Virus record (IMG/VR): IMGVR_UViG_3300043398_000164
Coordinates: 1-53,378 of that record
Source of the DNA: a virus
Taxonomy: Duplodnaviria > Caudoviricetes
Direction: 5' to 3' (one strand)
Length of the DNA: 53,378 bases
Shown: positions 1-34,346 of the stretch, one piece after another
Numbering within the stretch: the stretch's first letter is position 1
Layout of the letters: the number at the start of each line of letters is the position of its first letter
Program-made: the position numbers and the translations under genes
The notes under the pieces: model-generated
Seen by the model: only the letters and a program-made list of their open reading frames with translations
Databases searched by the model: none
Told to the model about the DNA's origin: nothing

Positions 1-127
1 GGAATCCCGCCCGTGTTTGTCTGCCGTTGTTGGAACGGTTGCTCGGGCATGTTCTTGAGTCGTCCCCGTAGCCACCACGGGGGCTGTCCGTAGTAGCCGC
101 CGCCCGGTTGATTGGGGAACGGCCCGC
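1..127. repeat. Terminal direct repeat, copy 1 (circularisation overlap)
   Basis: Identical to 53252-53378. A 127-nt length matches a common assembler k-mer, and it lies inside a CDS. Confidence 0.95.
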
Positions 128-2556: not shown

Positions 2557-3414
2557 CTAGCACTCCGCTTGCGTCACCCATTTAAATACTCCAAAGTCAT
2601 TTTTGAGCCATTGCTCCTGCCCGGCTTCGTAGCCGCTCACTTGCGTCAGGTCCACCGAAATTCCTGCCGAGAAAAGTTCGATGTACGTTCCCGCCTTGCA
2701 TCGCAACTTGCCCGCTGCCCCGGCCACGTCGAACTCCAGGCCCTTGTCCCCTTCGATTTCCACCGCGACAGCGCCGCTGTCGAAGTAAATCCCAGCCCCT
2801 TCCTTGACGCGCAGCTTGCCCGCCGCGCCCGCCACGTCAAACTCCAGCCCCTTGTTGGTTTCGAGTTCCACGTCGATCGTGTCGCCGTCGAAGGCGATGC
2901 CAGCGCCGCCGATTAAGTTTCCCAGGAAGGTTTCCGGGTCAATGTCAATCTGCACCGAGTCGGACCCGGAACTTGTCGTCAGCACAAACCCAACGCCGCC
3001 GATGAGGTTGAGCGTGTCGCCAAACGATTCGGCAACCAAGTCAGTCTGCGGGTTGCCAGTCTGATCGGTAACGTGGATTGTCTTGAACGCCAGCGAGTTG
3101 CAGACGATCAGGCCGCCCGCCGTCGTCATCGTCGTTTCGTCGGCAACCGCTGAGATGACGCCGGCCGTAATGTCGATGCCATCTCCCGCGGTGTACGCGA
3201 CGCCGCCGCCGGCCGCCGAGAGGATTCCGCCTGAACAAACAATCGTCACGTTGTCGATCAGTGGAGTAATCGTCCCCAGCGCCAGTGTAACCGGATCAAT
3301 CCCGCAGCCGGCCGTGTAGGTCGCGCCTGTCACGGTGAGGTTGCTGACGACCGATACGAGCGCGTCAATGCGATCGTCGGGCGAACTACATCCTCGTTTG
3401 GGAACGCCAGCCAT
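2557..3414 (-). CDS. Putative tail fibre protein
   Basis: YTAGDGIDIT-type beta repeats and a tandem ~36-aa duplication containing KGLEFDVAGAAGKLR; follows the nozzle gene. Confidence 0.65.
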   Translation of the reverse strand: MAGVPKRGCSSPDDRIDALVSVVSNLTVTGATYTAGCGIDPVTLALGTITPLIDNVTIVCSGGILSAAGGGVAYTAGDGIDITAGVISAVADETTMTTAGGLIVCNSLAFKTIHVTDQTGNPQTDLVAESFGDTLNLIGGVGFVLTTSSGSDSVQIDIDPETFLGNLIGGAGIAFDGDTIDVELETNKGLEFDVAGAAGKLRVKEGAGIYFDSGAVAVEIEGDKGLEFDVAGAAGKLRCKAGTYIELFSAGISVDLTQVSGYEAGQEQWLKNDFGVFKWVTQAEC

Positions 3415-3416
3415 GC

Positions 3417-4922
3417 TTAACCCTTCTTGCGATTTCCGTCTCCATTAATCGTCAACACGACCTCTTCCGGGCTCCACGCCGCCCCCGACACATCATCCAG
3501 TCGCACGTAGGCCGCCGTGCCATTGACGCGCGGGTTCTCTGTTCCGTTGAACCCGGCCGCCCAATTGGCGCACGTGTAGCTGGCCGTGCCGGACAGCGCG
3601 GCAAACGCCTCTTGCGGACTGTCGCCCACGAAGATGCTCGCCGTCGCCGCCCCCGAACCCTCGGCGAGCGTACCGCAGATTTCCGTGATTTCCGCCTTGC
3701 TGCTGGGTCCGCCTAACGCGATCGGCCCATAGACCAAGTAGCTGTCGATCGTCTCGCTACCGGCGGTGTCGTACTGATAGACGAGTCCGGCGTCGGTCAT
3801 GAGTAACAGCGGGCTGACGGTCGCGCTGCTCTTGTATTTGATGTTGGCTGCCAACTGCATTACCTTGCCGCTGAACGCCATCGGCCAGAAGCTCCCGCCG
3901 TCGCTGAGGAAATAGCGGTAGTACAGGTCAGTCCCGCTCGCCTTGTTGACGATAATGTCCACCGCATCCCACCGCGAACAGTAGCCGAGGCTACACCAGT
4001 CGCCAGCCCCAGGATCAATCCCCTTGAGGTCGTTTGGCAACTGGTTCTGCGAGACAATCACCGGCTCGCTCCCGCACCCTTCCGCCATTGCAAACAACCC
4101 CTGCCGCGTCATGAACATCAGCGTGCCGTTGCCGATATGGCAATGGGCCGATTGCATGAGCGGGCCGACCGGGGCCTTGAGCGGCATGAGTTGCCCGCCC
4201 GCGGCGATGTTGCCGATCAGCAGGTGCATCGAATCGGTTTGACCGATGACCGCGCAGTCGCGGGTGTGCGAGATGAACGACGTGATCGGTTCTTTCACCG
4301 TGAACGCGACGGCCGCCGATTCGTCGGTCTGCGTATAGTCCCAATCGGTCGGCGTTCCGATGCGCGGCGAGTAGACGGTCCAGGGGAAATCACTCGCCCC
4401 GCAGAGATAGAGTCGGTCGCCATGTGTGGCGACGATCCCGCAGTTGGTGGGCGCGGCAATGCCAGCCGTCAGGAGCGAGCCAAGTGCTGCGCCAGCGCCA
4501 GCACCCGCCGGCAAGCTCACGTACAGCGTCGTGCCGCCACTCCGCGCCTGATAGAGCCCTTGAAGGTAGACGGCGCAGGACGAAAACGTGGTCCCCGGCG
4601 CTATCGTAATCATCTCTGTCAGCGTCCACGAACCGCTGGCGTAGTAGATGATGTACGTGCCATTCTCGGTCGTGACCGCGATGCCGCGCCGCAGCGTGCC
4701 GCCGGAGAGATAGGACGCCTCGCAGTAATTGTACGGGGCGCCGATGGTTCCGATCGACGTACCTAGCGGCGGGCGCTGTCCACCACGCTCGCGGCCTGTC
4801 GTGGGATCAACTAGCCACACATTCTGGCAGGAGGGGGTCGTAAATGGCGCTTGCGATTGATAGGCAAACTTGCGACTTAGGCCCCCGGAAGGAAATGTCA
4901 GGGCTTTGGTGCGCTCGGCCAT
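3417..4922 (-). CDS. Putative podovirus tail nozzle / stabilisation protein (beta-propeller-like)
   Basis: 501 aa, beta-rich, with HGDRLYLCG...[14 protein letters not shown] motif; downstream of the adaptor. Confidence 0.6.
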
Positions 4923-4940
4923 CGGAGTTCTGCAATTTAG

Positions 4941-4968
4941 TTGACACAGGAAACCGGCGGGTCATAAT
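4941..4968 (+). promoter_or_regulatory. Sigma70-type promoter of the DUF1559 moron
   Basis: TTGACA-16 nt-CATAAT. Confidence 0.7.
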
Positions 4969-5092
4969 TCAATCGCTGGGTGAGCGTTGCGGGTTCGAAA
5001 CCGCAACGCCAAGCGACGTGCGGCGGGATTGGCTTTCGCCTTCCTGGCCGGTCACGCCGCACGCGGCCCGGCCTAACTGGAGGGCTTCTGCC

Positions 5093-5524
5093 ATGCGTCG
5101 CGCTTTCTCGCTCGTGGAATTGCTCGTTGCTATCTGCATCATCGCTTGCTTGATGGGCCTCTTACTGCCAGCCGTCATGCACGCTCGGGAAGCGGCCCGC
5201 GCCGCAGAATGCCGATCGAATCTCCACCAGATCGGCGTCGACATTTTCCAGCGCGTCGACCGTCGTGGTCGCATTCCGCACTTCCTCAACGGCAGCGCCG
5301 CCAATCTCCGCTGCCCAACCGCCGTGGCAATCTATGGCGATGATCGGGAAATGTTCGAGGACCAGGGGCATTACTTCCAGCTTTTTCAGGACGTTACTCG
5401 GGAGCGGATCATGGATGACCAACAAAAAGCATCAACGGAAATAGCACTTCTTATCGAGGGAGCGCCACTCCACAACGGAGTGGCGTTCGCTCTGTATCTC
5501 GACGGCCATGTGGCCGCACAGTGA
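5093..5524 (+). CDS. Mini prepilin-type N-terminal cleavage/methylation protein, DUF1559/H-X9-DG family (143 aa)
   Basis: [49 protein letters not shown]-terminal [14 protein letters not shown], and GGAGG RBS at 5079-5083. True start is 5093, not 4844. Confidence 0.9.
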
Positions 5525-6490
5525 TTACGTAATCACCAAATCAACAATCTTCGTGTAGAGGATGCGGCAGCCGTACATATACAAAATGTCGGTCGCGTGC
5601 GTGGGGGGCGTCAGCGACACCGTAACGGTGAGGGCGGCATTGGGGACATCGGCCGCCGCGACGGTCCCCGGAGCGACCTTGACGGTCGTGGTCGCAGTGT
5701 CAGTAAGGGCGTCAACAACGTCCGCCCCGCCATCCCAGTTCGTCACCAGAACGGCCGCATTGAAGCTGTTAGTAGTGCCCGCCGAAGCCACGATGAACTG
5801 CACCGTGACATTGGCGGCGCCATTGAAATCTGACGGGAGGCATACGGACGAAGCGATGCGATCCACATTTCCCGTCGCCCAGGCGATTCGCCAAGCGTTC
5901 GTTGTGCCGCCGCCTTCCAGGAATGGCGTTGAGTCGCTGGCCAGGGTACCGCCCACGGCGGCCAGGTTCCCAACGTCGCCATCAGCGTCGACTTCTCGGA
6001 ACGACGACAGCGGAATATCCACGCACCCAGTCGTTCCCAGCGTGGACGAATAGATCGCTTCAAACAGAGCAGCGGCATTATTTGCGATTCCGGCCGCCGT
6101 CAATGCCTGTCCAAAATCCGATGCCGGATCGTCAATCGGCAAATCAGCCGCCGTGTTGATCTCCACCGCCGCGCTCGCCGACAGCAGCACGCCCGACCAC
6201 CCCGAAGTCGTCGTCGAGATGAACTGCGCCGCTTCGCCGCTGGCTAACGTCCCGATCGTCGTCCCGGCGACGTTCGTGAAAATCTGCGCCCCGTCCGCAA
6301 TGGCGTAGAACACGCACCCGGCGCCCTCGGCGATATTCGGCAGGATGTACGTGCCCGCGCCCCAGCCCTTGCCGATGGCGAACTGCTTGCCGCCAAGGTT
6401 AATGACGTTGCCCGTGCCTGGGTCGGGGACGACGGAGAAATTTTTCCGAAGGGCTTCACCTAAAGTGAAATTGGCATTGGAAGCCTGCAT
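5525..6490 (-). CDS. Putative virion structural protein
   Basis: 321 aa, Ala/Thr/Gly-rich, beta-rich; in the head-tail operon; AGGAG RBS. Confidence 0.6.
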   Translation of the reverse strand: MQASNANFTLGEALRKNFSVVPDPGTGNVINLGGKQFAIGKGWGAGTYILPNIAEGAGCVFYAIADGAQIFTNVAGTTIGTLASGEAAQFISTTTSGWSGVLLSASAAVEINTAADLPIDDPASDFGQALTAAGIANNAAALFEAIYSSTLGTTGCVDIPLSSFREVDADGDVGNLAAVGGTLASDSTPFLEGGGTTNAWRIAWATGNVDRIASSVCLPSDFNGAANVTVQFIVASAGTTNSFNAAVLVTNWDGGADVVDALTDTATTTVKVAPGTVAAADVPNAALTVTVSLTPPTHATDILYMYGCRILYTKIVDLVIT

Positions 6491-6569
6491 TTTGATCTAG
6501 CTCCTGTTATTCGTGCCGCTGCGCTGATCCGAGAGCGACACCTTGTTAAGTTGACCGAAACAACTGCGT

Positions 6570-7589
6570 TCAAACATTGACGGAAATCGAGGCATACGGA
6601 ATATCCGCGCGGAGGTCAGCCAGCACATCCTCCAGCAAGTCGTCGTCGGCCGGCGGTCGGCCCAAGGTTTCCACGGCGCTGGTGCGGCGGTCGTAGCCTA
6701 CGCACGACGCCAGGCATTCCAGACGGTCGTTGTTCGCGGCCTGATAGGCACTCGTGTCGGCCCCCTTCACCTTCTTAATCAGTTCCGCCACCACCGCCTT
6801 AATAAGCAGTTCGCCAAACCACGGGCCGCCGTGGTGATACACGTAGGTCGATCCGTCGAGCGTAACCGGGACGATTTCGTAGCGGTACTCGACCGTGCGG
6901 TTCTCGCTGGTCAGCGGGAAAAACTGGACCTGCTGGCGGGCGTCGTTGGACGTGGTGGGGGCGACGTAGGAAAGGGAATACTCGCATGGATACAGGGAGG
7001 CGCCAAAGTCGCGGTCGAGTTCGCGGAGTTCCTTGTCGGGGATGCGTTTGAGTCGCAGCGGACCCAATGTGCTTTCGCGCGGGTACGTGAACCCGTCGTT
7101 CAGCAGCGAGCCGAAGTCGGTCGGCAGCGTGTAGTAGTGCTGGATCAGCGTGTAGCTGGTCCCCGCGGAGGCCGCCACGCTCGTATCGTTGAGCGTGACC
7201 TGCGTGTTGCTGTCGCGGGTGTTGACCGAATAGCGGATCGCGTTGACCCACACATCGCCATCGGCCGCCCAGGAGGGAAACGTCCCGCTGGCGAGCGTCA
7301 CGACTCCCGCGACAATCGTGACCGTGCCCGTCGAGTAGGGGGCGTAGAGCGAGAGCGTCGTGACCTGGCTCGTCATGAACGACCAGATATGTGGCGCTTC
7401 CATGCCGCGGCCGGAATCGCTGCGGAGCACAGGCGGATAGTAGGCCCACCGCTGGCCGCTCTTGAGCGCCGCCGAGAAGTCGGCCGCCTGCGTCGCACTC
7501 CACGAACCGGAGGCTTTACGCCACCCGGCGGCGCGTTGCCCTTCGTCCGCGAGCACCGAGTACGGGACTGCCAGTGTGTTTGCGGCCAT
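6570..7589 (-). CDS. Putative head-tail adaptor protein with inserted beta domain
   Basis: HIWSFM...YYTLPTDF...VQFFP...VEYRY pattern; position after capsid genes. Confidence 0.6.
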   Translation of the reverse strand: MAANTLAVPYSVLADEGQRAAGWRKASGSWSATQAADFSAALKSGQRWAYYPPVLRSDSGRGMEAPHIWSFMTSQVTTLSLYAPYSTGTVTIVAGVVTLASGTFPSWAADGDVWVNAIRYSVNTRDSNTQVTLNDTSVAASAGTSYTLIQHYYTLPTDFGSLLNDGFTYPRESTLGPLRLKRIPDKELRELDRDFGASLYPCEYSLSYVAPTTSNDARQQVQFFPLTSENRTVEYRYEIVPVTLDGSTYVYHHGGPWFGELLIKAVVAELIKKVKGADTSAYQAANNDRLECLASCVGYDRRTSAVETLGRPPADDDLLEDVLADLRADIPYASISVNV

Positions 7590-8721: not shown

Positions 8722-9804
8722 CTAGGTCGTCGCCTTGTGTCCGACGAAGTTCGAGCGTGGGGACGTGCAGCGATAGTTGATGATCGAGTCCATCCACGTT
8801 ACCCGCAGGTTGTGGCTGTTCCCGGTCGTGATCTCCGACTTCTTCATGAACCACGGACCCTTCTTCATGAAGTCCCAGGTGCTCATGTCGAACCCGTAGA
8901 TCGGTTCCGTCGAGTCGTAGGCTTCGCTCGCGCTGTTGGTCAGCGCGTCCACCCACGTCCAGGGAATCGAGCGGTAGAACACGCTGCCATCCGAGGTCGC
9001 CTTGTACTTGCCCATGTCGCTGCCGCGGTTATCGTTCACGCCGCCCAGCAAGTCCTGGTAGGTTTTCCAGGGCGTGTAGTGCGACGCTAACTTGTACCGC
9101 TGCGCCGGCACGCGCTCGCCCTTCGACGGATAGGGCGGCTTGAAGCCGCTCTTGTTGATCGCGTCGTCGAGCTTCGACAGTCCATCGCTGTCATTGATGG
9201 CGCCGTACACGAACGCCCCGTTCTTGGTGCCCTCGAACGTCGCGTCGGTGCGGTCCAGTCCCGCGACGGAACTGTAGCCACTGGGATTCGAGCCGTTGAA
9301 GCCGAACGCCTGTTGCGCGGTGCTCGTGCTCTTGACGACGTAGTATGGCGCGCCAGAAGGCTTCCGATTCGTCGTGTTCGGGTACACGGGCAGCGTCCAC
9401 CACCAGATTTCGTTCTTGCGCGCGAAACCGTCGAGCATGTCGGAGGCTTGGGCGTCCAGGTGGTTGAGCACCTGATAGTTGCCCAGGCCGCCGCTCATCT
9501 CGCGCACGTCGATGGCGAAGTGCGTTTTCTGGACGGCGTAATACTGCGTGGCCTTCTCCAACAGGTTGATCCGGTTCACCGAATCGTTGTCGAAGAGTTC
9601 CGTCGCCAGGGTGTTGTCCGACGAATCCACCTTGAAATGCCAGGTGAACGTCGGCGCATCGGGGCCTTGCGTCATCCGGCTCTTGAAGAGTTCCTGAACG
9701 ACGAAGAAATTGTTGAAGTCGCGGTCAGCATCCATCCACACGTTGGGCAAATACCCCTCCACGTAGGTGGTCAGCATGTCGCCAATGGCGTCGAGTGCGG
9801 GCAT
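8722..9804 (-). CDS. Major capsid protein (HK97 fold inferred)
   Basis: 360 aa with strong codon bias; terminase-portal-scaffold-capsid synteny. Confidence 0.75.
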   Translation of the reverse strand: MPALDAIGDMLTTYVEGYLPNVWMDADRDFNNFFVVQELFKSRMTQGPDAPTFTWHFKVDSSDNTLATELFDNDSVNRINLLEKATQYYAVQKTHFAIDVREMSGGLGNYQVLNHLDAQASDMLDGFARKNEIWWWTLPVYPNTTNRKPSGAPYYVVKSTSTAQQAFGFNGSNPSGYSSVAGLDRTDATFEGTKNGAFVYGAINDSDGLSKLDDAINKSGFKPPYPSKGERVPAQRYKLASHYTPWKTYQDLLGGVNDNRGSDMGKYKATSDGSVFYRSIPWTWVDALTNSASEAYDSTEPIYGFDMSTWDFMKKGPWFMKKSEITTGNSHNLRVTWMDSIINYRCTSPRSNFVGHKATT

Positions 9805-9805
9805 A

Positions 9806-12784: not shown

Positions 12785-15625
12785 TCACCACTCGCACGAC
12801 ATGGCATTGGCCTCTTCGCGCCCTGCCGCGTAAATCCGGCTTCCCAAACTCCCCTCGGGGGCCTGATGCAGCCGTTCCCAGTCGGAAATTTGCTGTTGAG
12901 CGGCCATCTTACGGGCATCCAGCGCCCGGACGGCGATGGCCGCCCCGACCGCCCGATCGCCGTGGTTCTCTCCGGCCTCGGAGGCGTCAAACGCCGTGCG
13001 GCTCTTGGGATGCTCGATCTTCCCGCCCACCCCATCGACAAAAATGTACTCGCCGCATTCCAAGATCAGCGGCAAACTGAGGATTTCCACCGCATCGTCG
13101 TTCATGGCGATCATCAGTGGCCGCATCGTCTCGGCCTTATTGCTGTTGTGATACCCAGGCAGCACGCCCGGCTTGGCATACGGCCGAAACTCATCCCCTT
13201 CGGCCTGATAGTAGAGGTTCGGGTAGCCCAGTTCGACGATCTTGGACGTGAAAATCGACCCCGGCAGGGCATTCCGCTCCCAATTGAGCACCGGCCACGT
13301 CAAATCCCCCCCGAACCACGCGCAGATCGCATAGATGTACTCGGCGAAATGGTCCGCATACATGTCGTTGCGCACGACTTCCGCGACCTGCCGCCGCGTG
13401 GACAGGTCAAAGAAGATGGCCGTCGAATTGCTTGAGCCGGAACCCCCCGTTCCGCCGCCCAAGTCACACCCGACGGCCAATCTCAGCCGCGGCGGACGCC
13501 CATCGACCACCGGAACCCATAGGGAAATCGGCCCCCGATCGACAGTTTGCCACGACGAGTCCTTGAGATTCGCCGGATTGGCTTGTAAATCCCCCCGGAC
13601 CATTGGCTCGACGCACCGCGCCTTATATCGCTCAATGGTCGCGGGGTTGAACGGCTTGCCCGACGCCCCGCCAAAGTCCATGTCGTATTCGCGCGACATG
13701 TACTTCGCGTTGTCGCCCGATTCGCGCCACTTACGGTCGTACCAGACGCTCCGCACCCGACCATCCAAAATAAACTCGTAGTCGGGCGGGAACTCATAGT
13801 CATCGAGCTGCTGGACTTTCCCCTTCTTGGCGGTGTATTTGCCAATCCGATGAACCGGATTGTCTTTCCAGTCCAGCGTGTACGTGAGCCACGGGCCGGG
13901 ATTCTCCAGTTTGCGAAAGTGCTCGGTATTCTCATCATTACTGGACGAAATCAGCAGAATTTGATTCGTCGTCGCCAGCAGATTCACAATCGCCTTCGTG
14001 TCGTAGCCCTTCATGAAGAAGCCGGCTTCGTCCAGAAAGAACGACGTGTACCGATCCGAGCGCCCGATATTCTCCGTGGCGCTTTCGGCATACAGCAGCG
14101 CCCCCGTGTCGGGATTCTCCCAGGTATGGGCGGTGACGCGGCGATGCACGTCGGGATTCCACTTCCGGGGGAGCATCCAGCCGGGGAGATTCTTCAAGAG
14201 GAAGTCGAACTTCCACCCCAGCGACCCATGCCGCGCGGGATCGTCCGCCTTCTGCATCGTCTCGCTGCCCATCCCCAGCACGCAGCCATGCTTGCGGAAC
14301 AGCCACGCCCAGCAGTACGCCGCCAGCACCATCCACGACGCGCCCTGCTCGCGACTCTTGCGCTCGACAATGTGCCGCTGGCCAAAGTAATGCTGCAAGC
14401 CAGCAATCAGCGGGTCTTGATGCTCCCACGTATTGAAGGGGATGGCGCCATAGACCGGATTGCCTAACGCATCGGTAATCCCATCCCGCGGCTCGTAAAT
14501 CCAGCAGTTGTGAACCAACAGCGGTTCACCATTTCCGTCGATGACGGTAAAGCAACGATTAGGTCCGCAATTCAAGAGATCGTAGACAACCGCCGTCCGT
14601 GAATCCCCGGAGCAAGTAACCGATCGCCCGTCAGACCCATGCGAATGCGGTATTGAATTGCCGCCTTGGTCACGCCCGCAATCGCCGCCGCTTCGGTCAG
14701 CGTCAACCTGCCGAGCGTCGCGTTGATAATCACATTGCGGCGCGTATTGTTGGCTTGCTCTTTTCTCGTGGCCCAGCGACAGTTCATCGGGTAGTAGCCG
14801 AAGTTGTTGTCGATCCGTTCGAGCGTCAAGCCAGGAGGGCGCTCGCCCATATCTTGGAGGAAATTCTCGAACGTCAGCCACCTCGCACAGACTTCGATTT
14901 CCCTGCCGCCGTAGCGATGATAGCTGGCATTGTTGGGATTGCTGCAACGATCGTGCATCGACATCCAAATCGTATAAATTGATTCCCCTGAGCGGCCGTG
15001 CGTCTTTCTTCCGCCTTGCTTGCATCCCTTGCGACCGCAGCTTTTTTGCTTGCCGCGGCGAAGATTGTCTCCGCTCACAATCCGCTCGTTCCCGCACTCG
15101 CAGCGGCAAAGCCACGCCGCCTGTGTCGTCGTGCGGTAAAACCCCTCGCGCCGAATAACCGTCAGGCAGTCGAACTGGAGCCCGGTCAAGTCGATCACCT
15201 GCGTCTTTCCAGCCATGTTTCGTCCACACTAAATGGTCGTGCGTGAGGTAAATCTTATACGCAAAGATAACAGACTTACGACCCTTGCACAACGCACCGC
15301 CTTGGCTCACCCAGTTCTCGCCGTCCCACACGAGATCATCGCTGGTCACGCACTCGATCGGGACAAGTCCTCGATCTGTCACCACGGGCGTACCGACAGC
15401 AAGGCAGAATGCATTGATGTAAAACAGCAGGTCGGAAGCACACGCTTCCAGAAGAGATTGCTGAAACGCCTTGTCCTCGGCCGCCCGCTCGGCGAGCATG
15501 ACCCGATACTCGAAGTGCGCCAGCGGGTCTTTAGGGACCGTCCCATACCACGGCGCCGCAGCGACCAGGGGATGAATCGTCCCCGGCTCAAACTGCAAAG
15601 TTTCGCCAACCGGCCAATCTCGCAC
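12785..15625 (-). CDS. terL: Terminase large subunit precursor containing an intein
   Basis: Walker A-like RKSREQGASW, Walker B FFLDEAG, nuclease VGCDLGGG and HGDRAVG. Start uncertain (GTG 15625 or TTG 15598). Confidence 0.92.
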   Translation of the reverse strand: MRDWPVGETLQFEPGTIHPLVAAAPWYGTVPKDPLAHFEYRVMLAERAAEDKAFQQSLLEACASDLLFYINAFCLAVGTPVVTDRGLVPIECVTSDDLVWDGENWVSQGGALCKGRKSVIFAYKIYLTHDHLVWTKHGWKDAGDRLDRAPVRLPDGYSARGVLPHDDTGGVALPLRVRERADCERRQSSPRQAKKLRSQGMQARRKKDARPLRGINLYDLDVDARSLQQSQQCQLSSLRRQGNRSLCEVADVREFPPRYGRAPSWLDARTDRQQLRLLPDELSLGHEKRASQQYAPQCDYQRDARQVDADRSGGDCGRDQGGNSIPHSHGSDGRSVTCSGDSRTAVVYDLLNCGPNRCFTVIDGNGEPLLVHNCWIYEPRDGITDALGNPVYGAIPFNTWEHQDPLIAGLQHYFGQRHIVERKSREQGASWMVLAAYCWAWLFRKHGCVLGMGSETMQKADDPARHGSLGWKFDFLLKNLPGWMLPRKWNPDVHRRVTAHTWENPDTGALLYAESATENIGRSDRYTSFFLDEAGFFMKGYDTKAIVNLLATTNQILLISSSNDENTEHFRKLENPGPWLTYTLDWKDNPVHRIGKYTAKKGKVQQLDDYEFPPDYEFILDGRVRSVWYDRKWRESGDNAKYMSREYDMDFGGASGKPFNPATIERYKARCVEPMVRGDLQANPANLKDSSWQTVDRGPISLWVPVVDGRPPRLRLAVGCDLGGGTGGSGSSNSTAIFFDLSTRRQVAEVVRNDMYADHFAEYIYAICAWFGGDLTWPVLNWERNALPGSIFTSKIVELGYPNLYYQAEGDEFRPYAKPGVLPGYHNSNKAETMRPLMIAMNDDAVEILSLPLILECGEYIFVDGVGGKIEHPKSRTAFDASEAGENHGDRAVGAAIAVRALDARKMAAQQQISDWERLHQAPEGSLGSRIYAAGREEANAMSCEW
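14507..15406 (-). mobile_element. Intein, 300 aa, in TerL
   Basis: Block A CLAVGTPVVTDRG, block B LTHDH, block F VYDLLNCGPNRCFTV, block G LVHN followed by Cys+1. Splicing restores INAF|CWIYEPR. Confidence 0.92.
14572..15216 (-). CDS. HNH-type homing endonuclease nested in an alternative frame within the intein
   Basis: IDLTGLQFDCLTV..WLCRCECG..SCG..HG..WMSMHDRC..YGGREIEVCARW..LERIDNNFGYYPMNCRWAT; own ATG and TGA, offset +1 from the intein frame. Confidence 0.9.
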   Translation of the reverse strand: MAGKTQVIDLTGLQFDCLTVIRREGFYRTTTQAAWLCRCECGNERIVSGDNLRRGKQKSCGRKGCKQGGRKTHGRSGESIYTIWMSMHDRCSNPNNASYHRYGGREIEVCARWLTFENFLQDMGERPPGLTLERIDNNFGYYPMNCRWATRKEQANNTRRNVIINATLGRLTLTEAAAIAGVTKAAIQYRIRMGLTGDRLLAPGIHGRRLSTIS

Positions 15626-15648
15626 AAACCACCCAGTGGCAACCGCTC

Positions 15649-15984
15649 CTAGGCCGGCATTGTAACAGGCCAGCACAGCGAAACGGCAGGTCCATCCGGC
15701 GAGCCGCATGGATGCTCGCAAAAAGTCAGACCGTACCAAGATTTCGCCCGCCCCACGTCTCCGTCCACCGGCTCCCTGTAGCAATTGAATAAATCCGTCA
15801 GCGAGTCAACAAGACCGCTGCAAAGATGCAGCGTTCGGTCGCCGACGCGAATCACCGCCGGACGACCGCACCGCTCGCACACCAATCGCGTCTCCAATTC
15901 CTCAACATGACCCCAACCGGCCTTGTCAATCAGAAACGACACATGGCACAGCTCAATGTGCGAAATCTCCTGACTACTTGGCAT
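15649..15984 (-). CDS. Cys-rich hypothetical protein
   Basis: ORF between the TerS candidate and TerL; CERCG motif. Confidence 0.55.
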   Translation of the reverse strand: MPSSQEISHIELCHVSFLIDKAGWGHVEELETRLVCERCGRPAVIRVGDRTLHLCSGLVDSLTDLFNCYREPVDGDVGRAKSWYGLTFCEHPCGSPDGPAVSLCWPVTMPA

Positions 15985-23192: not shown

Positions 23193-23894
23193 ATGCGAAA
23201 CGCAATCATTTACTTGAGGGTTAGCACCAAGGGCCAGGCCGAGAATGGCGTGAGCTTCGCAGATGGCGACGACTCCGGCTTTCAGGAGATGAAATGCCGT
23301 GAACTCTGCGAGCGCAAGGGGTGGATCATCCAAGGGGTCCACGGCGACCCAGTGAGCGGGCGCCGGATGCACAACCGGCCAGGACTCAAGGCAGCACTAG
23401 CCGGCGTCTGTGCGTGTCGTGGCGTGCTGGTGTTCTATTCCGTCTCTCGGCTAGCGCGCTCGACCCGCGACCTATGCAACATTGCCGCTGAGCTTGAGGA
23501 GCACCGGGCGCACTTCGCCAGCGCGACCGAGGATTTTGATACGACCACCGCAATGGGCCGGGCATTCTTCGGAATTCTTGGCGTGCTGGCGCAGCTCGAA
23601 TCCGATCAAACAGGCGAGCGCGTCAAAGCGGCCAACGCGCATATCGTCGCGCAACTGGGCTATCGCACATTCGGCGAGCAGCGATATGGGTGGACGATTA
23701 AGGCCGGCGTGCGCGTTGAAGTACCCGAGGAACAGGCCCACATTCGCAGCGTGCTAGCAGTCGTGGAACAAAACGGCCGCTCGCCGGAAGGGATTTGCGA
23801 GTACCTCAATGGGGCCGGCATCACCACGCCCAAGGGGCTGATGTGGACGCCGAAGCGCTTGGGGCGGTTTGTCGCCACGCACCACAACTTATAG
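23193..23894 (+). CDS. Serine recombinase (resolvase catalytic domain plus short recombinase-type C-terminus)
   Basis: YLRVSTKGQ catalytic Ser, SG..NRPGL, SRLARS, DTTTAMGRAFFGILGVLAQLE. Confidence 0.92.
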   Translation: MRNAIIYLRVSTKGQAENGVSFADGDDSGFQEMKCRELCERKGWIIQGVHGDPVSGRRMHNRPGLKAALAGVCACRGVLVFYSVSRLARSTRDLCNIAAELEEHRAHFASATEDFDTTTAMGRAFFGILGVLAQLESDQTGERVKAANAHIVAQLGYRTFGEQRYGWTIKAGVRVEVPEEQAHIRSVLAVVEQNGRSPEGICEYLNGAGITTPKGLMWTPKRLGRFVATHHNL

Positions 23895-26266: not shown

Positions 26267-27163
26267 ATGAGCACCTTATTCATCACGCAACCAACAGCCG
26301 TCTACACGACGCGAGATGCGTGGCGTCGCGCTCGTCAGTCGTTCATCGGCGCGAGCGATGCCGCGGCTATCTGGGGCGTCTCCGGTTATTCATCGCCCTA
26401 TGCGTGCTGGTATCACAAGGTGACGCCGCTGGAGCAAGAGGAATCGGACATCCTGCAACGCATCGGTCACGCCCTGGAGCCGCTGATTACTGAACTGTTC
26501 CACGAGGCGACTGGCGTTGAGGTCTATGACCCCGGCGACTTCGCCGTTTATCGGCACCGCGAAGTCGAGTGCATGGGCTGCACGCCAGACCGACTGACCT
26601 ACGATGGCTCGGCAATTGTCGAACTCAAGACGGCAGGCTTTGGCGCTGCGGACGAGTGGAAGACACGCATCCCGCTCGCGTACCAAACACAACTCCAGCA
26701 CGCGATGCTCTGCGTTGGCGTCGAGCGTGCATACATCGCGGTCCTGATTAACAGCACGCAATTTAAGCACCACGAGATGCATCTGTCGCCGAACTTCGCA
26801 CGGCGGCATATCGCCAAGTGCAAGGCGTTTTGGGAACAGCATGTTTTAACCAAGGAAGCGCCGCCGCCGGACTGGTCGCACGCGACTTCACAGGCGCTGG
26901 CCAAGCAGTTCATGGCGAGTCGCCGCAAGGTGGTTGACCTGCCGGTTGAGTTCGACGGCATCGGCGCACGCTACGACCGAATATCAAAGTTCATCGCGGC
27001 GGCTGAACGACACCAGAACGAAATCAAGAACCGCGTGAAAGCGGTGATGGGCGAGAACGAATTGGGACGGCTGCCAACAGGCGATGGTTTCGCCTGGGCG
27101 GGCAAGAACGGTTCGCGGCGGTTTACTCGAAAGGCTAAGGAAATTCATGGCGACCTCGAATAA
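26267..27163 (+). CDS. YqaJ-like viral recombinase / exonuclease
   Basis: WRRARQSFIGASDAAAIWG, GHALEP, CTPDRL, VELKT, YQTQLQH. Confidence 0.92.
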   Translation: MSTLFITQPTAVYTTRDAWRRARQSFIGASDAAAIWGVSGYSSPYACWYHKVTPLEQEESDILQRIGHALEPLITELFHEATGVEVYDPGDFAVYRHREVECMGCTPDRLTYDGSAIVELKTAGFGAADEWKTRIPLAYQTQLQHAMLCVGVERAYIAVLINSTQFKHHEMHLSPNFARRHIAKCKAFWEQHVLTKEAPPPDWSHATSQALAKQFMASRRKVVDLPVEFDGIGARYDRISKFIAAAERHQNEIKNRVKAVMGENELGRLPTGDGFAWAGKNGSRRFTRKAKEIHGDLE

Positions 27164-27905
27164 CGGCGGGCAATTGGCGGTGACGCAACCGCAACAGAAA
27201 CTCGTCAATGCCGGGCAACGCGGGCTTGTGCTCGGCGACATGGACGCGATGTGGCGATTCGCTGGGGCAATCTCAGCGAGCGGCGTGGCTCCGCGTGGAC
27301 TCAAGACGCGTGAACAGATTCTTGTGGCGCTCCAGTACGGCGCTGAGCTCGGACTGCGACCGATGCAGGCGATGGCGTCTGTCATGGTAATCAACGGGCG
27401 TCCTGCCCTGTACGGCGATGGGATGCTGGCGGTGGCGCAGGCGAGCGGGTTTCTCGTTGACATCAAGGAATCACTGGAGGGCAACCCGGACAAGCTAGAG
27501 ACGCTGGCGGCGGTCTGCGAAGTGAAACGACTAGGACGCCCGACGCCTTCGCTGTGTCGCTTCTCGTGGAAGGATGCCCAGCGTGCGGGCCTGTCTGGCA
27601 AGGACCTCTACAAGCAGCACCCCGGCCGGATGCTCAAAGCCCGTGCCCGTGCGTTCGCGTTGCGTGATGCCTTCCCGGACGTGCTGTGCGGCGTGCTATC
27701 GACGGACGAGGCTGACGACCTGCCGGCGGATGGCGCGTCGCCGGTATTTGTTGACGGGGCGACGCAAGCGCCGACGGACCTGGAGACGCTAATGCAAACG
27801 GACGCCGTCGTGGAAGGCGAAGTCGTGGACGATACGCCAGCCACAAGCGGCGAGTTATTCGACGAACCCGACATGATGGACCTGCCAGTGCAGGAGTGGA
27901 AGTGA
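27147..27905 (+). CDS. RecT/Redbeta-like single-strand annealing protein
   Basis: GAELGLRPMQA..VINGRPALYGD..RMLKARARAFALRDAFPDVLCG; acidic tail; follows YqaJ. Confidence 0.85.
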   Translation: MATSNNGGQLAVTQPQQKLVNAGQRGLVLGDMDAMWRFAGAISASGVAPRGLKTREQILVALQYGAELGLRPMQAMASVMVINGRPALYGDGMLAVAQASGFLVDIKESLEGNPDKLETLAAVCEVKRLGRPTPSLCRFSWKDAQRAGLSGKDLYKQHPGRMLKARARAFALRDAFPDVLCGVLSTDEADDLPADGASPVFVDGATQAPTDLETLMQTDAVVEGEVVDDTPATSGELFDEPDMMDLPVQEWK

Positions 27906-33264: not shown

Positions 33265-33615
33265 ATGAACTCCTACCGCGAAAGACTACTGGACGCGCTG
33301 AAATTGAATCAGTACAGCACCGCGAAAACCGCCGCCACGTTGGGCATCAGCAGTCAAGCGTGTAGGGATGCGAAGAAACGCTTGCGAGCCGCCGGCTACC
33401 ATGTCCCCAAAGACCCGGACCTCGGTTGCCCGTGCGGCCATCAAACCAACATCGACCCGACGCCGGAAGAAATCGCGGCGATGTGCGAGCAGTTCCGCGA
33501 GTCGTGGAATGAAGAGCGGAAGCGGCGTTACGAAGGGCCGCCGGCGGTTGTGTTGCACGCGCACACCACGGGCAGGATGGGGCGGGAGAGAATCTACTCA
33601 GTGAGGCAAGCATGA
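33265..33615 (+). CDS. Fis-like HTH protein
   Basis: LLDALKLNQYSTAKTAATLGIS; DPTPEEIAAMC motif. Confidence 0.7.
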   Translation: MNSYRERLLDALKLNQYSTAKTAATLGISSQACRDAKKRLRAAGYHVPKDPDLGCPCGHQTNIDPTPEEIAAMCEQFRESWNEERKRRYEGPPAVVLHAHTTGRMGRERIYSVRQA

Positions 33616-34346
33616 CGTTCGGGAGCTTGTTCGCCGGTATTGGTGGCTTCGACTTAGGACTTGAGCGAGCCGGCATGGAGTGCAAGTGGCAGGTTGAGAT
33701 TGACCCGTATTGCCAGCGCGTGCTGGCGAAGCATTGGCCGAACGTGAGGCGCCACGATGACGTTAGAACCTTCCCCCCCACCGATGCCGACGACTGGCGA
33801 GTTGACGTTATCTGCGGAGGGTTCCCGTGCCAGGGAATCTCTCGTGCCAACCACGCAGCTGCTGGCCTGGAAGATGCGCGCTCCGGTCTTTGGGTGGAGT
33901 TTGCCAGGGTGGTTCGCTTTATTCGACCACGCTACGTCGTCGTTGAGAACACGACAGAGATTACTTATCGAGGACTCACAAAGGTGCTTGGAGACCTTGC
34001 CGCTTGCGGGTTCGATGCAGAGTGGGCGCCTGTATCAGCCTCTCAGTTGGGAGCGCCCCATACACGGCAACGAATCTTCGTTGTGGCCTACGCCAACGGC
34101 AAGCCAGGACCACAAGATGATTCGCCAGCAATGCCCGAGCGAGCGCGATGGCCTCCACGGAACGATGCTTGTTGCGTCAGTTGGAACGGCCGCCCCTCAG
34201 TTCATCGGATGGTATCTGAATCCGACGTTCTGCGAGTGGCTAATGGGGTTCCCTCAAGGACACACCGACTGCGAGGACTCGGCAACGCCGTCGTTCCCCA
34301 AGTCGCCGAGTGGATCGGACGGAGATTGATGGAGGCTACGGCATGA
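33612..34346 (+). CDS. DNA (cytosine-5) methyltransferase, main polypeptide
   Basis: Motif I SLFAGIGG, IV GGFPCQ, VI VENT, VIII HTRQRIF, X GNAVVPQV; no motif IX in this frame. Confidence 0.92.
   Translation: MTFGSLFAGIGGFDLGLERAGMECKWQVEIDPYCQRVLAKHWPNVRRHDDVRTFPPTDADDWRVDVICGGFPCQGISRANHAAAGLEDARSGLWVEFARVVRFIRPRYVVVENTTEITYRGLTKVLGDLAACGFDAEWAPVSASQLGAPHTRQRIFVVAYANGKPGPQDDSPAMPERARWPPRNDACCVSWNGRPSVHRMVSESDVLRVANGVPSRTHRLRGLGNAVVPQVAEWIGRRLMEATA
33757..34329 (+). CDS. Overlapping-frame ORF, putative methyltransferase beta polypeptide carrying motif IX
   Basis: LWPTPTAS...YLNPTFCEWLMGFPQGHT resembles motif IX; start codon uncertain. Confidence 0.6.
   Translation: MTLEPSPPPMPTTGELTLSAEGSRARESLVPTTQLLAWKMRAPVFGWSLPGWFALFDHATSSLRTRQRLLIEDSQRCLETLPLAGSMQSGRLYQPLSWERPIHGNESSLWPTPTASQDHKMIRQQCPSERDGLHGTMLVASVGTAAPQFIGWYLNPTFCEWLMGFPQGHTDCEDSATPSFPKSPSGSDGD

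What the first reader, a model, noticed from the sequence alone, without database searches (positions are those of the whole stretch)
4941..5524. Phage-borne miniature DUF1559/H-X9-DG pilin-like gene as an autonomous moron
Seen: a 143-aa ORF with a type IV prepilin-like N-terminus ([10 protein letters not shown]), the LLLPAVxxAREAARxxxCxxNLxQIG signature and terminal H-X9-DG. It sits antisense inside the virion operon with its own TTGACA/CATAAT promoter and GGAGG RBS, and its stop abuts the neighbour's stop. Established: this family is greatly expanded in Planctomycetes and related phyla, has unknown function, and is typically about twice this size. Inference: a lysogeny-expressed decoy or alternative pilin that alters or blocks the host pilus (superinfection exclusion or receptor masking).
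Basis: partly seen in the sequence, partly recalled or inferred. Interest (0 to 1): 0.82.

Follow-up and report, generated by a model that had tools for sequence, protein, structure and literature searches.

The report
Compact pilin-like gene kept by phages
An uncultured phage, probably of planctomycetes, carries a small but intact pilin-like gene that its distant relatives keep at the same spot, next to a variable virion surface protein, which suggests the phage tampers with its host's pilus-like fibres.

Summary
Window 5093..5524 (+) encodes an intact 143-aa protein with a prepilin-type N-terminus ([11 protein letters not shown]), the LLLPAV..AREAAR..C..NLHQIG block and a terminal H-X9-DG. 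It lies antisense between virion genes. Upstream sits the best sigma-70-like site of the whole 53-kb genome, plus a GGAGG. Its stop abuts the neighbour's stop. The AlphaFold model (pLDDT 93.5) has a type IV pilin fold.

The 'autonomous moron, lysogeny-expressed' reading is not supported. Three other phage genomes (two of them close relatives of each other), whose structural proteins are only 23-40% identical to this one's, carry the same compact gene at the same place and in the same orientation. A further lineage lacks it. About 70 such compact forms exist among 1.84 billion protein representatives, against about 170,000 DUF1559-type proteins. I found no integrase of a usual phage type and no prophage copy, and no RNA data.

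New point: between two closely related phages, similarity collapses only over the C-terminal head of the pilin and the abutting C-terminal lectin-like domain of the neighbouring virion protein. The two form one exchangeable cassette.

Best reading, inferred only: a long-kept phage pilin that enters the host's type IV filament machinery and alters or blocks the fibres involved in adsorption. New variant of a known kind; interest 0.6.

The parts
4941..4968 (+). Sigma-70-like promoter site: TTGACA, 16 nt, CATAAT
   Evidence: 11 of 12 consensus positions. It is the only site of 11/12 or better among 17 in the whole window. A TTGACT hexamer lies upstream of the gene in L008, L061 and L220 too. This is a consensus match only; no transcript data exist.
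4975..5078 (+). Predicted structured 5' leader made of two hairpins
   Evidence: (fold of 4975-5095): minimum free energy -66.5 kcal/mol, z = -4.3, and 0 of 200 shuffles fold as well. No Rfam family reaches its threshold. The leaders of the relatives are much shorter, so this is not a conserved feature.
5079..5083 (+). GGAGG ribosome-binding site, 9 nt before the ATG
   Evidence: Read directly from the sequence. It is left unpaired in the predicted leader fold.
5093..5524 (+). Compact type IV pilin-like gene (143 aa, P0001). Leader peptide MRRA is 5093-5104. The mature protein starts at F5, with E9 at position +5.
   Evidence: HMM scores; homologues; invariant F5, E9, P26, R32, R36, Y94, H127, D137; pilin fold.
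5471..5506 (+). H-X9-DG motif (H127 to G138), followed by H139 and V140
   Evidence: Sequence. H127 and D137 are invariant and H139 and V140 are at least 90% conserved in 37 sequences. TIGR04294 scores 12.2 bits, below its cut-off of 19.
5525..6490 (-). Convergent neighbour: a 321-aa virion surface protein. It has a cement-protein-like N-domain (about residues 1-105), a helix (132-151) and a C-terminal jelly-roll, carbohydrate-binding-module-like domain (residues 154-315, about 5546-6031).
   Evidence: 2 of 36 family members hit PF09956 Phage_cement_2 (best E 2.5e-8); model with pLDDT 83.6. CBM36/CBM6/CBM35 matches with Z 10-11 over residues 154-315; matches to phage tail-fibre and minor-tail proteins in BFVD; the L163 homologue is only the 108-aa N-domain.
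3417..4922 (-). Divergent neighbour: a 501-aa conserved virion protein, with a lead to a P22 gp10-like tail hub
   Evidence: 58 viral stretches encode relatives; nearest Atlas clusters are 89-100% viral, and one carries PF11134 Phage_stabilise on 17% of members (a lead only). The gp10 identification of PF11134 is recalled. The pilin gene travels with this gene in the trees.
1..127 (.). 127-bp exact terminal repeat (also at 53252-53378), so the assembly closes on itself
   Evidence: It may be an assembler overlap of a circular or circularly permuted genome (my inference).

Best explanation
Window 5093..5524 is a functional gene for a compact type IV pilin-like protein. It keeps the DUF1559-type N-terminal block and the H-X9-DG end but lacks the roughly 200-aa middle of its cellular relatives. 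It is a long-kept component of this uncultured phage lineage, not a recent add-on.

Shown here:
- The prepilin-type signal, the pilin fold and the conserved residues.
- The same position and orientation in three other genomes.
- Absence in one related lineage.
- A promoter-like site of its own.
- Together with the abutting C-terminal lectin-like domain of the neighbouring virion protein, it forms the one stretch that has been replaced between two otherwise similar phages.

Inferred:
- It is transcribed separately from the virion genes by host RNA polymerase, probably early.
- The host prepilin peptidase removes MRRA.
- The mature protein enters the host's type IV filament machinery (pilus, pseudopilus or DUF1559 fibres) through its conserved N-terminal helix.
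- There it caps, dilutes or replaces host subunits. The fibres or surface the phage uses for adsorption are changed, which shields the infected cell and its debris from further virions.
- Its variable head tracks the host's fibre type, just as the virion protein's variable domain tracks the host's surface.
For: Gene and fold:
- Intact ORF. PF07963 and TIGR02532 score above their cut-offs.
- F(+1) and E(+5) are invariant in 37 sequences.
- The model has pLDDT 93.5.
- 15 of the 16 best VIA-align rows are type IV pilins or pseudopilins: 6xxd PilA4 Z 6.6, rmsd 3.2 over 107 residues; PilV Z 5.5; EpsG Z 4.9.
- PDB sequence hits are all pilins or pseudopilins (16 of 16).

Selection:
- dN/dS is about 0.32 among L008, L061 and L220. 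dS is 1.6-2.0, so this is approximate.

Long-kept in the lineage:
- Same site and strand in L008, L061 and L220.
- The 501-aa neighbour forms a clade of six with 100/100 support that holds all four carriers.

Discrete compact family:
- 75 representatives reach E<=1e-30. Of these, 70 are at most 193 aa with one full-length stretch. This compares with 171,662 representatives at E<=1e-10.
- The nearest Atlas cluster has 61 members, labelled 'Viruses 50%' with phylum known for 6.
- Two planctomycete genomes gave 128 and 39 matches at E<=1e-10. None of the 149 of these that were listed spans the compact model; 18 were not listed.

Own expression signals.

Cassette (L061 vs L220):
- DNA is 77-82% identical on both sides. 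No alignment is found over L220 8690-9736, which is the C-terminal part of the 3xx-aa protein plus the pilin head.
- Protein identity is 87% for the 501-aa gene, 50% for the pilin (67% for residues 1-55, 39% for the rest) and 44% for the 3xx-aa protein (63% for residues 1-98, 34% for the rest).
- dS is 1.55 and 1.35 in the cassette against 0.75 in the flank. That points to replacement by recombination rather than faster change in place.

Linkage elsewhere:
- Three pairs of metagenomic homologues of the two genes share source and longest-contig length: 74284, 3417 and 12185. This is suggestive only.

Precedent:
- T5 Llp, an early receptor-blocking protein encoded adjacent to the receptor-binding protein gene pb5 (PMC9586334, passages read).
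- Phage proteins that shut down type IV pili for exclusion: D3112 Gp05 and DMS3 Aqs1, both acting on PilB (PMC11436027, passages read).
Against: - There is no transcript, protein or phenotype data. No RNA run holds the stretch, so timing, processing and any effect on fibres are all inference.
- The host is unknown. 'Planctomycetota' rests on the pilin's nearest cellular relatives and Atlas taxa. Short DUF1559 forms also occur in a cluster labelled 94% Bacteria, so the compact form is not proven to be phage-only.
- The neighbouring virion protein's N-domain resembles capsid cement proteins, so it may decorate the head rather than act as the receptor-binding protein. That weakens the T5 Llp/pb5 analogy.
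- Joint replacement of two abutting 3' ends could be a by-product of a single recombination event, without functional coupling.
- The cassette contrast rests on one close pair (L061/L220).
- GC3 of the gene (0.65) is below its neighbours' (0.74-0.88). That fits lower expression or foreign origin.
- Sigma-70 consensus scanning may not apply to the host.
Confidence: 0.45

Rival explanations
1. One reading: a recently acquired, self-contained moron expressed from a prophage, acting as a decoy or alternative pilin for lysogenic conversion or superinfection exclusion.
For: - A promoter-like site of its own.
- Lower GC3 than its neighbours, 0.65 vs 0.74-0.88.
- Absent from the L163/L164/L165 lineage.
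- The genome has a resolvase-family recombinase and a YqaJ/RecT-like pair.
Against: - Same site and strand in three genomes whose flanking proteins are only 32-40% identical to the window's.
- No terminator-like site after it.
- No usual phage integrase or CI-type repressor in the 40 proteins scanned against Pfam.
- The window and L220's contig both close on themselves.
- 0 of 401 Planctomycetota genomes had a match, with 10 candidates scored per genome.
- Only 1 genome-collection locus encodes the 501-aa neighbour, and that is a free phage-size contig.
Confidence: 0.1
2. A host-function gene kept for the phage's benefit. The compact pilin builds or maintains a fibre during infection, for example for attachment or polymer uptake by the infected cell, rather than blocking one.
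For: - It has the size and fold of a major pilin or pseudopilin: Thermus PilA4 125 aa, and the GspG model has 134 positions.
- DUF1559 proteins are the largest paralogue group in Planctopirus limnophila (68 genes, two of them essential), so they matter to the host (PMC10632474, passage read).
- The conserved C40/C74 pair and the H/D/H motif suggest a stably folded, exported subunit (inference).
Against: - Hosts already carry tens to more than a hundred paralogues: 128 and 39 matches in two genomes. One more copy would seem to add little.
- Replacement of the head together with a virion surface domain fits specificity or antagonism better than housekeeping.
Confidence: 0.15
3. A membrane-anchored periplasmic protein with a non-filament role, such as part of the lysis or envelope-crossing apparatus. 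It would use a pilin-derived signal-anchor only for targeting.
For: - A single N-terminal hydrophobic helix followed by a small periplasmic domain.
- No lysis genes were recognised among the 40 proteins scanned against Pfam, so this role is vacant in my annotation.
Against: - The residues specific to prepilin processing and filament packing, F(+1) and E(+5), are invariant.
- The whole protein, not only the anchor, matches pilin folds.
- The position among tail and head genes is not a typical lysis cassette.
Confidence: 0.08
4. An assembly factor or chaperone for the variable C-terminal domain of the neighbouring 321-aa virion protein. Tail-fibre assembly proteins likewise sit next to, and co-vary with, fibre tips.
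For: The two C-terminal parts are replaced together between L061 and L220. The genes abut or overlap at their stops in all four genomes.
Against: - A prepilin-type signal sends the protein to the membrane and periplasm, whereas virions assemble in the cytoplasm (established knowledge of type IV pilins).
- The gene is on the opposite strand behind its own promoter-like site.
- The related lectin-like domain occurs in L341 without a pilin gene.
Confidence: 0.05

Closest known systems
DUF1559 / 'prepilin-type processing-associated H-X9-DG' proteins of Planctomycetota and related phyla (PF07596 with TIGR02532 and TIGR04294)
   Same: - Prepilin-type leader, and an N-terminal 50-60 residues that are 52-69% identical to the cellular proteins.
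- The same AREAAR..C..NL.Q.G block and the same terminal H-X9-DG.
- The compact model matches long proteins at both ends, at model positions 1-65 and about 117-138.
   Different: - 143 aa against a median of 332 aa. The roughly 200-aa middle of PF07596 is missing, and the Pfam and TIGR04294 scores fall below their cut-offs.
- In every case where I could see the context, it is encoded in phage genomes.
- It forms a small discrete group: 75 representatives against about 170,000.
Classical small type IV pilins and pseudopilins (Thermus PilA4, GspG/EpsG, Neisseria minor pilin PilV)
   Same: Size, the long N-terminal helix followed by a small beta-sheet head, and the class III signal with F(+1)/E(+5).
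   Different: - Head-domain sequence identity is only 9-15% and Z is at most 6.6.
- It carries an H-X9-DG end and a C40/C74 pair instead of the usual C-terminal disulfide loop (the comparison is from general knowledge).
- It is not in a pilus or secretion operon.
T5 Llp beside the receptor-binding protein gene pb5 (early receptor-blocking exclusion protein)
   Same: A small envelope-targeted protein encoded directly beside a virion host-recognition gene. The proposed role is to stop adsorption to infected cells and debris (PMC9586334, passages read).
   Different: - Llp is a lipoprotein that binds FhuA, not a pilin homologue.
- Here neither the receptor nor any binding is known.
- The neighbour may be a head decoration protein rather than the receptor-binding protein.
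Phage inhibitors of type IV pili used for superinfection exclusion (D3112 Gp05/Tip, DMS3 Aqs1, vB_Pae_QDWS Gp21)
   Same: Phage-encoded interference with the host's type IV pilus (PMC11436027, passages read). It is the same proposed outcome.
   Different: Those proteins act on the PilB ATPase or on expression and are not pilin homologues. Here the phage carries a pilin-like subunit itself. I found no report of that in seven literature searches.
Morons of temperate phages
   Same: An extra gene on the opposite strand within a late operon, with a promoter-like site and lower GC3.
   Different: No terminator, conserved across deep divergence, no evidence of lysogeny, and its absence in relatives comes with truncation of the neighbouring gene.

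Membership tests
Type IV pilin-like proteins (class III signal peptide; PF07963 / TIGR02532) | HMM score at or above the curated cut-off | tested here: met
   PF07963 scores 21.5 bits against a cut-off of 21.2. TIGR02532 scores 17.6 against 16.3.
Type IV pilin-like proteins (class III signal peptide; PF07963 / TIGR02532) | Short basic leader ending in G or A, F or M at +1, E at +5, followed by about 20 hydrophobic residues | tested here: met
   [25 protein letters not shown]. F5 and E9 are invariant in 37 sequences. The -1 residue is A in 25 and G in 12 of 37 compact forms, and A in 45 and G in 50 of 95 long cellular forms.
Type IV pilin-like proteins (class III signal peptide; PF07963 / TIGR02532) | Pilin fold: long alpha-1 helix packed on a small beta-sheet | tested here: met
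   The model has pLDDT 93.5, with helix 7-53 and four strands. 15 of the 16 best VIA-align rows are pilins or pseudopilins, with a best Z of 6.6, which is a modest value. Foldseek gave no match at E<=0.001, and its top rows are pilins at TM 0.34-0.48.
Type IV pilin-like proteins (class III signal peptide; PF07963 / TIGR02532) | Cleavage and N-methylation by a prepilin peptidase, and assembly into a filament | not testable with these tools
   Needs expression in a host. No prepilin peptidase or other prepilin-type motif was found in the window: 1 motif in six frames.
DUF1559 (PF07596, SBP_bac_10) | HMM score at or above the gathering cut-off, over the domain | tested here: not met
   22.0 bits against 23.3, and only residues 30-49 align to positions 2-21 of 268. 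Many homologues carry a precomputed PF07596 hit. It shares the family's N-terminal block but lacks most of the domain.
H-X9-DG C-terminal domain (TIGR04294) | Literal H-X9-D-G near the C-terminus of a prepilin-type protein | tested here: met
   H127, [10 protein letters not shown]137-G138. H127 and D137 are invariant.
H-X9-DG C-terminal domain (TIGR04294) | HMM score at or above the cut-off | tested here: not met
   12.2 bits against 19, E 0.12.
Moron (independent transcription unit added to a phage genome) | Own promoter and own terminator | tested here: inconclusive
   A promoter-like site is present at 11/12. No terminator-like site follows the stop, which abuts the neighbour's stop. Both tests are consensus scans only.
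Moron (independent transcription unit added to a phage genome) | Inserted between genes that are adjacent in related phages, with patchy and recent distribution | tested here: not met
   Present at the same site in L008, L061 and L220 despite 32-40% identity of the flanking proteins. In L163/L164/L165 the gene is absent, but the neighbour is also cut to 108 aa.
Moron (independent transcription unit added to a phage genome) | Expressed from the prophage | not testable with these tools
   No RNA run was listed and no prophage copy was found.
Receptor-blocking exclusion protein paired with a host-recognition gene (T5 Llp type; functional analogy only) | Encoded beside the virion's host-recognition gene and varying with it | tested here: inconclusive
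   It is adjacent to, and replaced together with, the lectin-like domain of the 321-aa virion protein in the one close pair available. Whether that protein is the receptor-binding protein is unknown.

The most novel reading that the evidence does not exclude
The compact pilin head and the lectin-like domain of the neighbouring virion protein are a matched pair. The phage would adsorb to fibres built from the host's DUF1559-type pilins (or to their glycans). Its own stripped-down pilin would enter the same machinery, using the conserved N-terminal helix, to cap or poison those fibres. If so, this phage lineage would identify the enigmatic, hugely expanded DUF1559 family as subunits of a surface fibre that serves as a phage receptor. 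It would also be the first case of a phage using a pilin homologue itself as an exclusion device.
Probability: 0.2. Interest if true: 0.85.

Novelty: new variant of a known kind. Interest (0 to 1): 0.6.

Why it matters
DUF1559/H-X9-DG proteins are the largest paralogue family in planctomycetes: 68 genes in Planctopirus limnophila, two of them essential, with function unknown (PMC10632474, passage read). A phage lineage that has kept a minimal version of this protein for a long time, and swaps its head together with a virion surface domain, gives two things.

First, it defines the minimal folded core of the family: a pilin module with the H-X9-DG end.

Second, it offers an experimental handle. 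Expressing a 143-aa phage protein and watching what happens to fibres, uptake and virion binding could show what the cellular family does.

For phage biology it would add a new class of host-surface manipulation. Here the phage supplies a pilin subunit, whereas the known cases use an inhibitor of the pilus motor.

Tried and rejected
- C-terminal-only alignments to fish for compact-family genes. 
- Degenerate DNA pattern for H-x5-[AV]L[YF]LDGHV in metagenome contigs. Most of the loci held ordinary long H-X9-DG genes; only two (L279, L224) held compact-like ORFs of 164-171 aa. None carried this phage's structural genes. It gave no context for the metagenomic compact homologues.
- GenBank phage records: no match for the pilin or for the portal-position protein.
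- PHROGs: no family for the pilin or for 8 of the 9 flanking proteins tested. Only the terminase matched.
The narrower A6 found only L341, which has the lectin-like domain alone and no pilin gene.
- Complex prediction of the lectin-like domain (residues 150-321) with the pilin head (28-143): 'no answer', score 0.00 against a mark of 0.32. This is not evidence either way.
- Sequencing runs: no RNA holder was listed. This is no evidence on expression.
- 401 Planctomycetota genomes: no match at E<=1e-32, but only 10 candidates per genome were scored and the tool itself warns that an empty answer shows little.
- Rfam on 4700-5700: nothing near a gathering score.
The contigs of the roughly 70 compact-family proteins could therefore not be inspected.
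- Paper supplements were not consulted. The InterPro architecture tables of PMC8179133 may list DUF1559-type modular pilins.
- Considered and dropped: the longer 226-aa ORF from ATG 4844. It overlaps the neighbour's start and the promoter-like site, and all homologues begin at the MRR leader.
Full report
**What the window is.** The window is a whole IMG/VR virus record of 53,378 bp. It has an exact 127-bp terminal repeat, GC 0.60 and no tRNA genes.

The minus-strand block from about 15.8 kb down to 0.35 kb continues across the repeat into 47.5-53.1 kb and holds the virion genes.
- A 999-aa large terminase was recognised (phrog_2, E 1.1e-15).
- Proteins of 594, 304, 360, 257, 339, 321, 501 and 285 aa follow it.
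- For these, Pfam and PHROGs gave nothing at their thresholds apart from a weak Laminin_G_3 hit.
- The 594-, 360- and 501-aa proteins have relatives in other viral contigs in the same order.

The plus-strand block at 19-46 kb holds:
- a resolvase-family recombinase (E 4.6e-31);
- a YqaJ exonuclease;
- a weak RecT match;
- a C5 DNA methylase;
- an 867-aa protein with a weak beta-helix match.

**The observation.** The ORF runs from ATG 5093 to TGA 5524 and encodes 143 aa.
- The N_methyl models pass their cut-offs (PF07963 21.5/21.2; TIGR02532 17.6/16.3).
- The DUF1559 model falls just short (22.0/23.3) and aligns only to residues 30-49.
- The H-X9-DG model scores 12.2/19, although the literal motif H127-X9-D137-G138 is there.
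- The promoter-like site at 4941-4968 matches 11 of 12 consensus positions. It is the best of the 17 such sites in the whole genome, whose total number is no higher than in shuffled sequence.
- The window holds only one prepilin-type motif in all six frames.

**Not an artefact.** Two runs of the likely source sample carry the 3400-6600 stretch in single contigs without differences. That is not independent support. A run from a different study (X3) has short contigs that cover 4761-4957 and 5283-5551 with no differences. These two contigs span both junctions of the gene. Three other assemblies also show the same gene order (below).

**A discrete compact family.**
- A word-seeded search of 5.8 billion proteins found 68 homologues. 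About 40 are full-length, 131-165 aa and 37-57% identical.
- An alignment of 37 of them (A1) shows invariant F5, E9, L20, L23, P26, R32, R36, L44, Y94, H127, L136 and D137.
- C40, C74, P75, H139 and V140 are at least 90% conserved in that alignment.
- A profile search of 1.84 billion representatives gave 303,233 proteins at E<=0.001, 171,662 at E<=1e-10 and only 75 at E<=1e-30.
- 70 of those 75 are at most 193 aa with a single full-length match.
- Cellular relatives are about 330 aa. In 160 loci from the viral and genome collections, the 179 N-terminal matches give a median of 332 aa.
- Cellular proteins match the compact model only at its two ends: positions 1-65, and in many also about 117-138.

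The compact protein is thus the family's two conserved ends joined by about 50 residues instead of about 250.

**Fold.** With A1 as the alignment, AlphaFold2 gives mean pLDDT 93.5 and pTM 0.82. The model has a helix over residues 7-53 and a small head with four strands.
- Foldseek against the PDB found nothing at E<=0.001. Its first rows are pilins at TM 0.34-0.48.
- VIA-align against 48,161 chains puts type IV pilins, minor pilins and pseudopilins in 15 of the first 16 rows: Thermus PilA4 Z 6.6 (rmsd 3.2, 107 aligned), PilV Z 5.5, a Shewanella pilin Z 5.1, EpsG Z 4.9.
- These Z values are modest by the tool's own guidance. The consistency of the hits, and the sequence matches to 16 of 16 pilin or pseudopilin chains, make a pilin fold the clear reading.

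In size and shape this is an ordinary small pilin. The long cellular proteins look like pilins with an extra module. That matches the 'modular pilin' idea of PMC8179133 (passages read). That paper does not discuss DUF1559 in the passages I saw.

**Where else the gene sits.** Among the 80 best of 228 IMG/VR stretches that encode relatives of A1, only L008 (46.8-kb contig) and L061 (38.8-kb contig) match the compact model end to end. Both turned out to be relatives of the window's phage.
- Homologues of the 398-, 501-, 339-, 360- and 594-aa proteins and of the terminase lie in the same order.
- The compact gene sits between the 501-aa homologue (divergent) and a gene of about 300 aa (convergent), as in the window.

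A profile of the 501-aa protein found 58 viral stretches and one genome-collection locus.
- An HMM of the compact family hit 3 of these 58 loci (57 viral plus L220): L166 (the same contig as L008), L181 (the same contig as L061) and L220.
- L220 lies on a 54,036-bp contig binned into a Gemmatimonadota MAG.
- That contig has an exact 123-bp terminal repeat.
- It holds the only match to the compact model in that 3.1-Mb genome.
- I therefore read it as a free phage genome that was mis-binned.

In all four genomes the stops of the two convergent genes abut, overlap or lie a few bases apart:
- window: 0 bases apart;
- L061: 2-base overlap;
- L220: 4-base overlap;
- L008: 3 bases apart.

**Relatives without it.** L163, L164 and L165 are near-identical to one another and have GC 0.52. 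Their capsid-position, portal-position and 501-aa proteins are the closest to the window's (39-41% identity), yet they lack the gene.
- There, the ORF between the 339-aa and 501-aa homologues is only 108 aa.
- That ORF aligns to residues 6-107 of the window's 321-aa protein (E 2e-8).
- So the difference between 'with' and 'without' is the compact pilin gene plus the C-terminal two thirds of its neighbour.

In a maximum-likelihood tree of the 501-aa protein, the six genomes form one clade (100/100) with three branches: window; L163+L164; and L008+(L061, L220). The order of the branches is unresolved. One gain at or near the base followed by retention, with or without one loss, explains this.

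In the portal-position and capsid-position trees, L008 falls outside this clade. The pilin gene therefore travels with the module that holds the 501-aa gene rather than with the head genes.

**Divergence and selection.**
- The window's pilin is 41-44% identical to the three others. Its 501-aa neighbour is 35-40% identical and its 321-aa neighbour 32-40%.
- Among L008, L061 and L220, dN/dS for the pilin is about 0.32. dS is 1.6-2.0, near saturation, so the figure is rough.
- There is no sign of decay in any copy: no stops, and all invariant residues are kept.

**The cassette.** L061 and L220 are close relatives. DNA is 77-82% identical over most of 20 kb and the 501-aa protein is 87% identical.
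- BLASTN finds no alignment between L220 8690 and 9736, and similarity resumes at 9736-9866.
- That gap is the part of the roughly 300-aa gene after its first 65 codons, plus the part of the pilin gene after its first 50 codons.

| Protein, L061 vs L220 | N-terminal part | Remainder |
|---|---|---|
| Pilin | 36/54 identical (residues 1-55) | 33/84 |
| Roughly 300-aa protein | 62/98 identical (residues 1-98) | 63/187 |

- dS is 1.55 and 1.35 in these two genes against 0.75 in the 501-aa gene.
- That pattern points to replacement by recombination with a more distant relative rather than faster change in place.
- The conserved 5' parts of two convergent genes would serve as the flanks for such an exchange (my inference).
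- This rests on one close pair.

**The neighbour.**
- The 321-aa protein has 36 homologues at E<=0.001, none with a name from its source.
- Two of 36 aligned family members hit PF09956 Phage_cement_2 (best E 2.5e-8).
- Its model (pLDDT 83.6) has a beta N-domain, a helix at 132-151 and a C-terminal beta-sandwich.
- The sandwich (residues 154-315) matches carbohydrate-binding modules at Z 10-11 (CBM36, CBM6, CBM35, CBM15). It also matches parts of phage tails: the crAss001 muzzle at Z 9.4 and the HFTV1 tail at Z 9.2.
- In BFVD the best matches include tail-fibre, minor-tail and C1q-like proteins, with 462 matches at E<=0.001.

I read it as a virion surface protein, either a head decoration with a projecting domain or a short fibre. 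Its outer domain probably binds a host surface ligand, possibly a glycan.

Three of its metagenomic homologues share source and longest-contig length with three compact-pilin homologues: 74,284 (jgi), 3,417 (lgn) and 12,185 (lgn). This suggests further linked pairs, but the contigs could not be fetched.

**Host and lifestyle.**
- All 80 genome-collection loci kept for A1 carry record titles of planctomycete taxa, by my reading of the names.
- The N-terminal 48-62 residues are 52-69% identical to those proteins.
- A Singulisphaera genome gave 128 matches at E<=1e-10 and a Laterigemmans genome 39. The 149 of these that the tool listed are all N-terminal matches in frames of 162-738 aa; 18 matches were not listed.
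- Atlas clusters of short DUF1559 forms are labelled half viral (61 members) or 94% bacterial, mostly Planctomycetota (88 members). The compact form may therefore not be exclusive to phages.

A planctomycete host is likely but unproven.

For lysogeny I found only a 233-aa resolvase-type recombinase.
- There was no prophage copy in the genome collection.
- None of 401 Planctomycetota genomes had a match, with 10 candidates scored per genome.
- Two genomes of the lineage close on themselves.
- No RNA run holds the stretch.

**Expression signals.**
- Besides the window's TTGACA-16-CATAAT, a TTGACT hexamer stands upstream of the gene in L008, L061 and L220.
- In L008 and L061 it is followed by GGCGCC-containing palindromes that might be operator sites. 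This is unexplored.
- The window's 5' leader is about 120 nt and is predicted to fold unusually well (z -4.3). The relatives' leaders are short, so this is not a family feature.
- No terminator-like site follows the gene. A transcript would run antisense into the neighbour. That fits expression at a different time from the virion genes (inference).

**How it most likely works.** The invariant F(+1) and E(+5), the hydrophobic helix and the pilin fold argue that the protein is handled like any prepilin. It would be inserted in the inner membrane, cleaved by the host peptidase and offered to a type IV filament machine.

Its N-terminal helix is the part most like the host's DUF1559 proteins, so it should compete for the same machinery. 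Its head is small and variable.

A phage gains from such a protein if the fibres, or what they display, serve adsorption. A subunit that caps, dilutes or replaces host subunits would protect the infected cell and keep progeny from sticking to debris. T5 Llp does this by blocking FhuA (PMC9586334). D3112 Gp05 and DMS3 Aqs1 do it by stopping PilB (PMC11436027).

The joint replacement of the pilin head and a virion surface domain fits a pair of host-specificity determinants. All steps after 'pilin-like protein encoded and conserved' are inference. I put 0.45 on this reading as a whole, and about 0.9 on the parts that were shown: a real gene, a pilin fold, long-kept in the lineage, and not a recent moron.

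**Novelty.**
- Four papers in the library mention DUF1559 and none of their titles concerns phages. I read the DUF1559 passage of one of them, PMC10632474.
- Six further searches combining phage, pilin, prepilin, planctomycete and exclusion terms returned nothing on phage-borne pilin homologues of this kind.
- PHROGs v4 has no family for it and GenBank phages have no match.

I file it as a new variant of a known kind: a known protein superfamily in a new, compact, phage-linked form with a distinctive genomic arrangement.

Noticed in passing
L220 (contig C159 of G002, 54,036 bp; ends in L346/L347): A contig binned in a Gemmatimonadota MAG is a phage-size genome with an exact 123-bp terminal repeat. 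It holds that genome's only match to the compact pilin model, so it is probably a mis-binned free phage genome.
   Followed up: partly
window 12785..15784 (-): The large terminase is unusually long at 999 aa. Besides the terminase match at residues 362-956, it has a weak match to an endonuclease family (phrog_93, residues 145-196). This suggests an N-terminal extra domain or an inserted element.
   Followed up: no
window 4975..5095 (+): The 5' leader of the pilin gene is predicted to form two long hairpins (-66.5 kcal/mol, z -4.3, 0 of 200 shuffles as stable). There is no Rfam match, and the leader is not shared by the three relatives, whose leaders are short.
   Followed up: partly
L008 9915..9975 and L061 9905..9950: Directly after the conserved TTGACT, both relatives carry GGCGCC-containing inverted repeats (GGCGCCTTTT...AAAAGGCGCC in L008). 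These may be operator sites for a regulator of the pilin gene.
   Followed up: no
window 23193..23894 (+), 26267..27163 (+), 27084..27905 (+), 33612..34346 (+): A resolvase-family serine recombinase (233 aa), a YqaJ exonuclease, a weak RecT-like match and a C5 cytosine methylase. No usual phage integrase or CI-type repressor was seen among the 40 proteins scanned.
   Followed up: partly
window 2557..3414 (-): A 285-aa protein with an internal repeat (..GLEFDVAGAAGKLR.. occurs twice), probably a fibre-like virion protein. Its C-terminal part is shared with L061 and L220.
   Followed up: no
L341 5073..5564: The lectin-like C-terminal domain of the 321-aa protein (47% identity over residues 155-319) occurs in another viral contig (GC 0.65). 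That contig has neither the pilin gene nor any other gene of this phage, so the domain is a mobile module.
   Followed up: partly
IMG/VR loci L002-L081: 228 IMG/VR stretches encode DUF1559-type relatives. The 80 kept loci hold 75 long forms, many on contigs of 90-230 kb. These may be host fragments or prophage flanks rather than phage genes, and this was not sorted out.
   Followed up: no
window 5093..5524 vs neighbours: GC3 of the pilin gene is 0.65 against 0.74-0.88 for five neighbouring virion genes. This is a codon-usage difference of unknown meaning.
   Followed up: no
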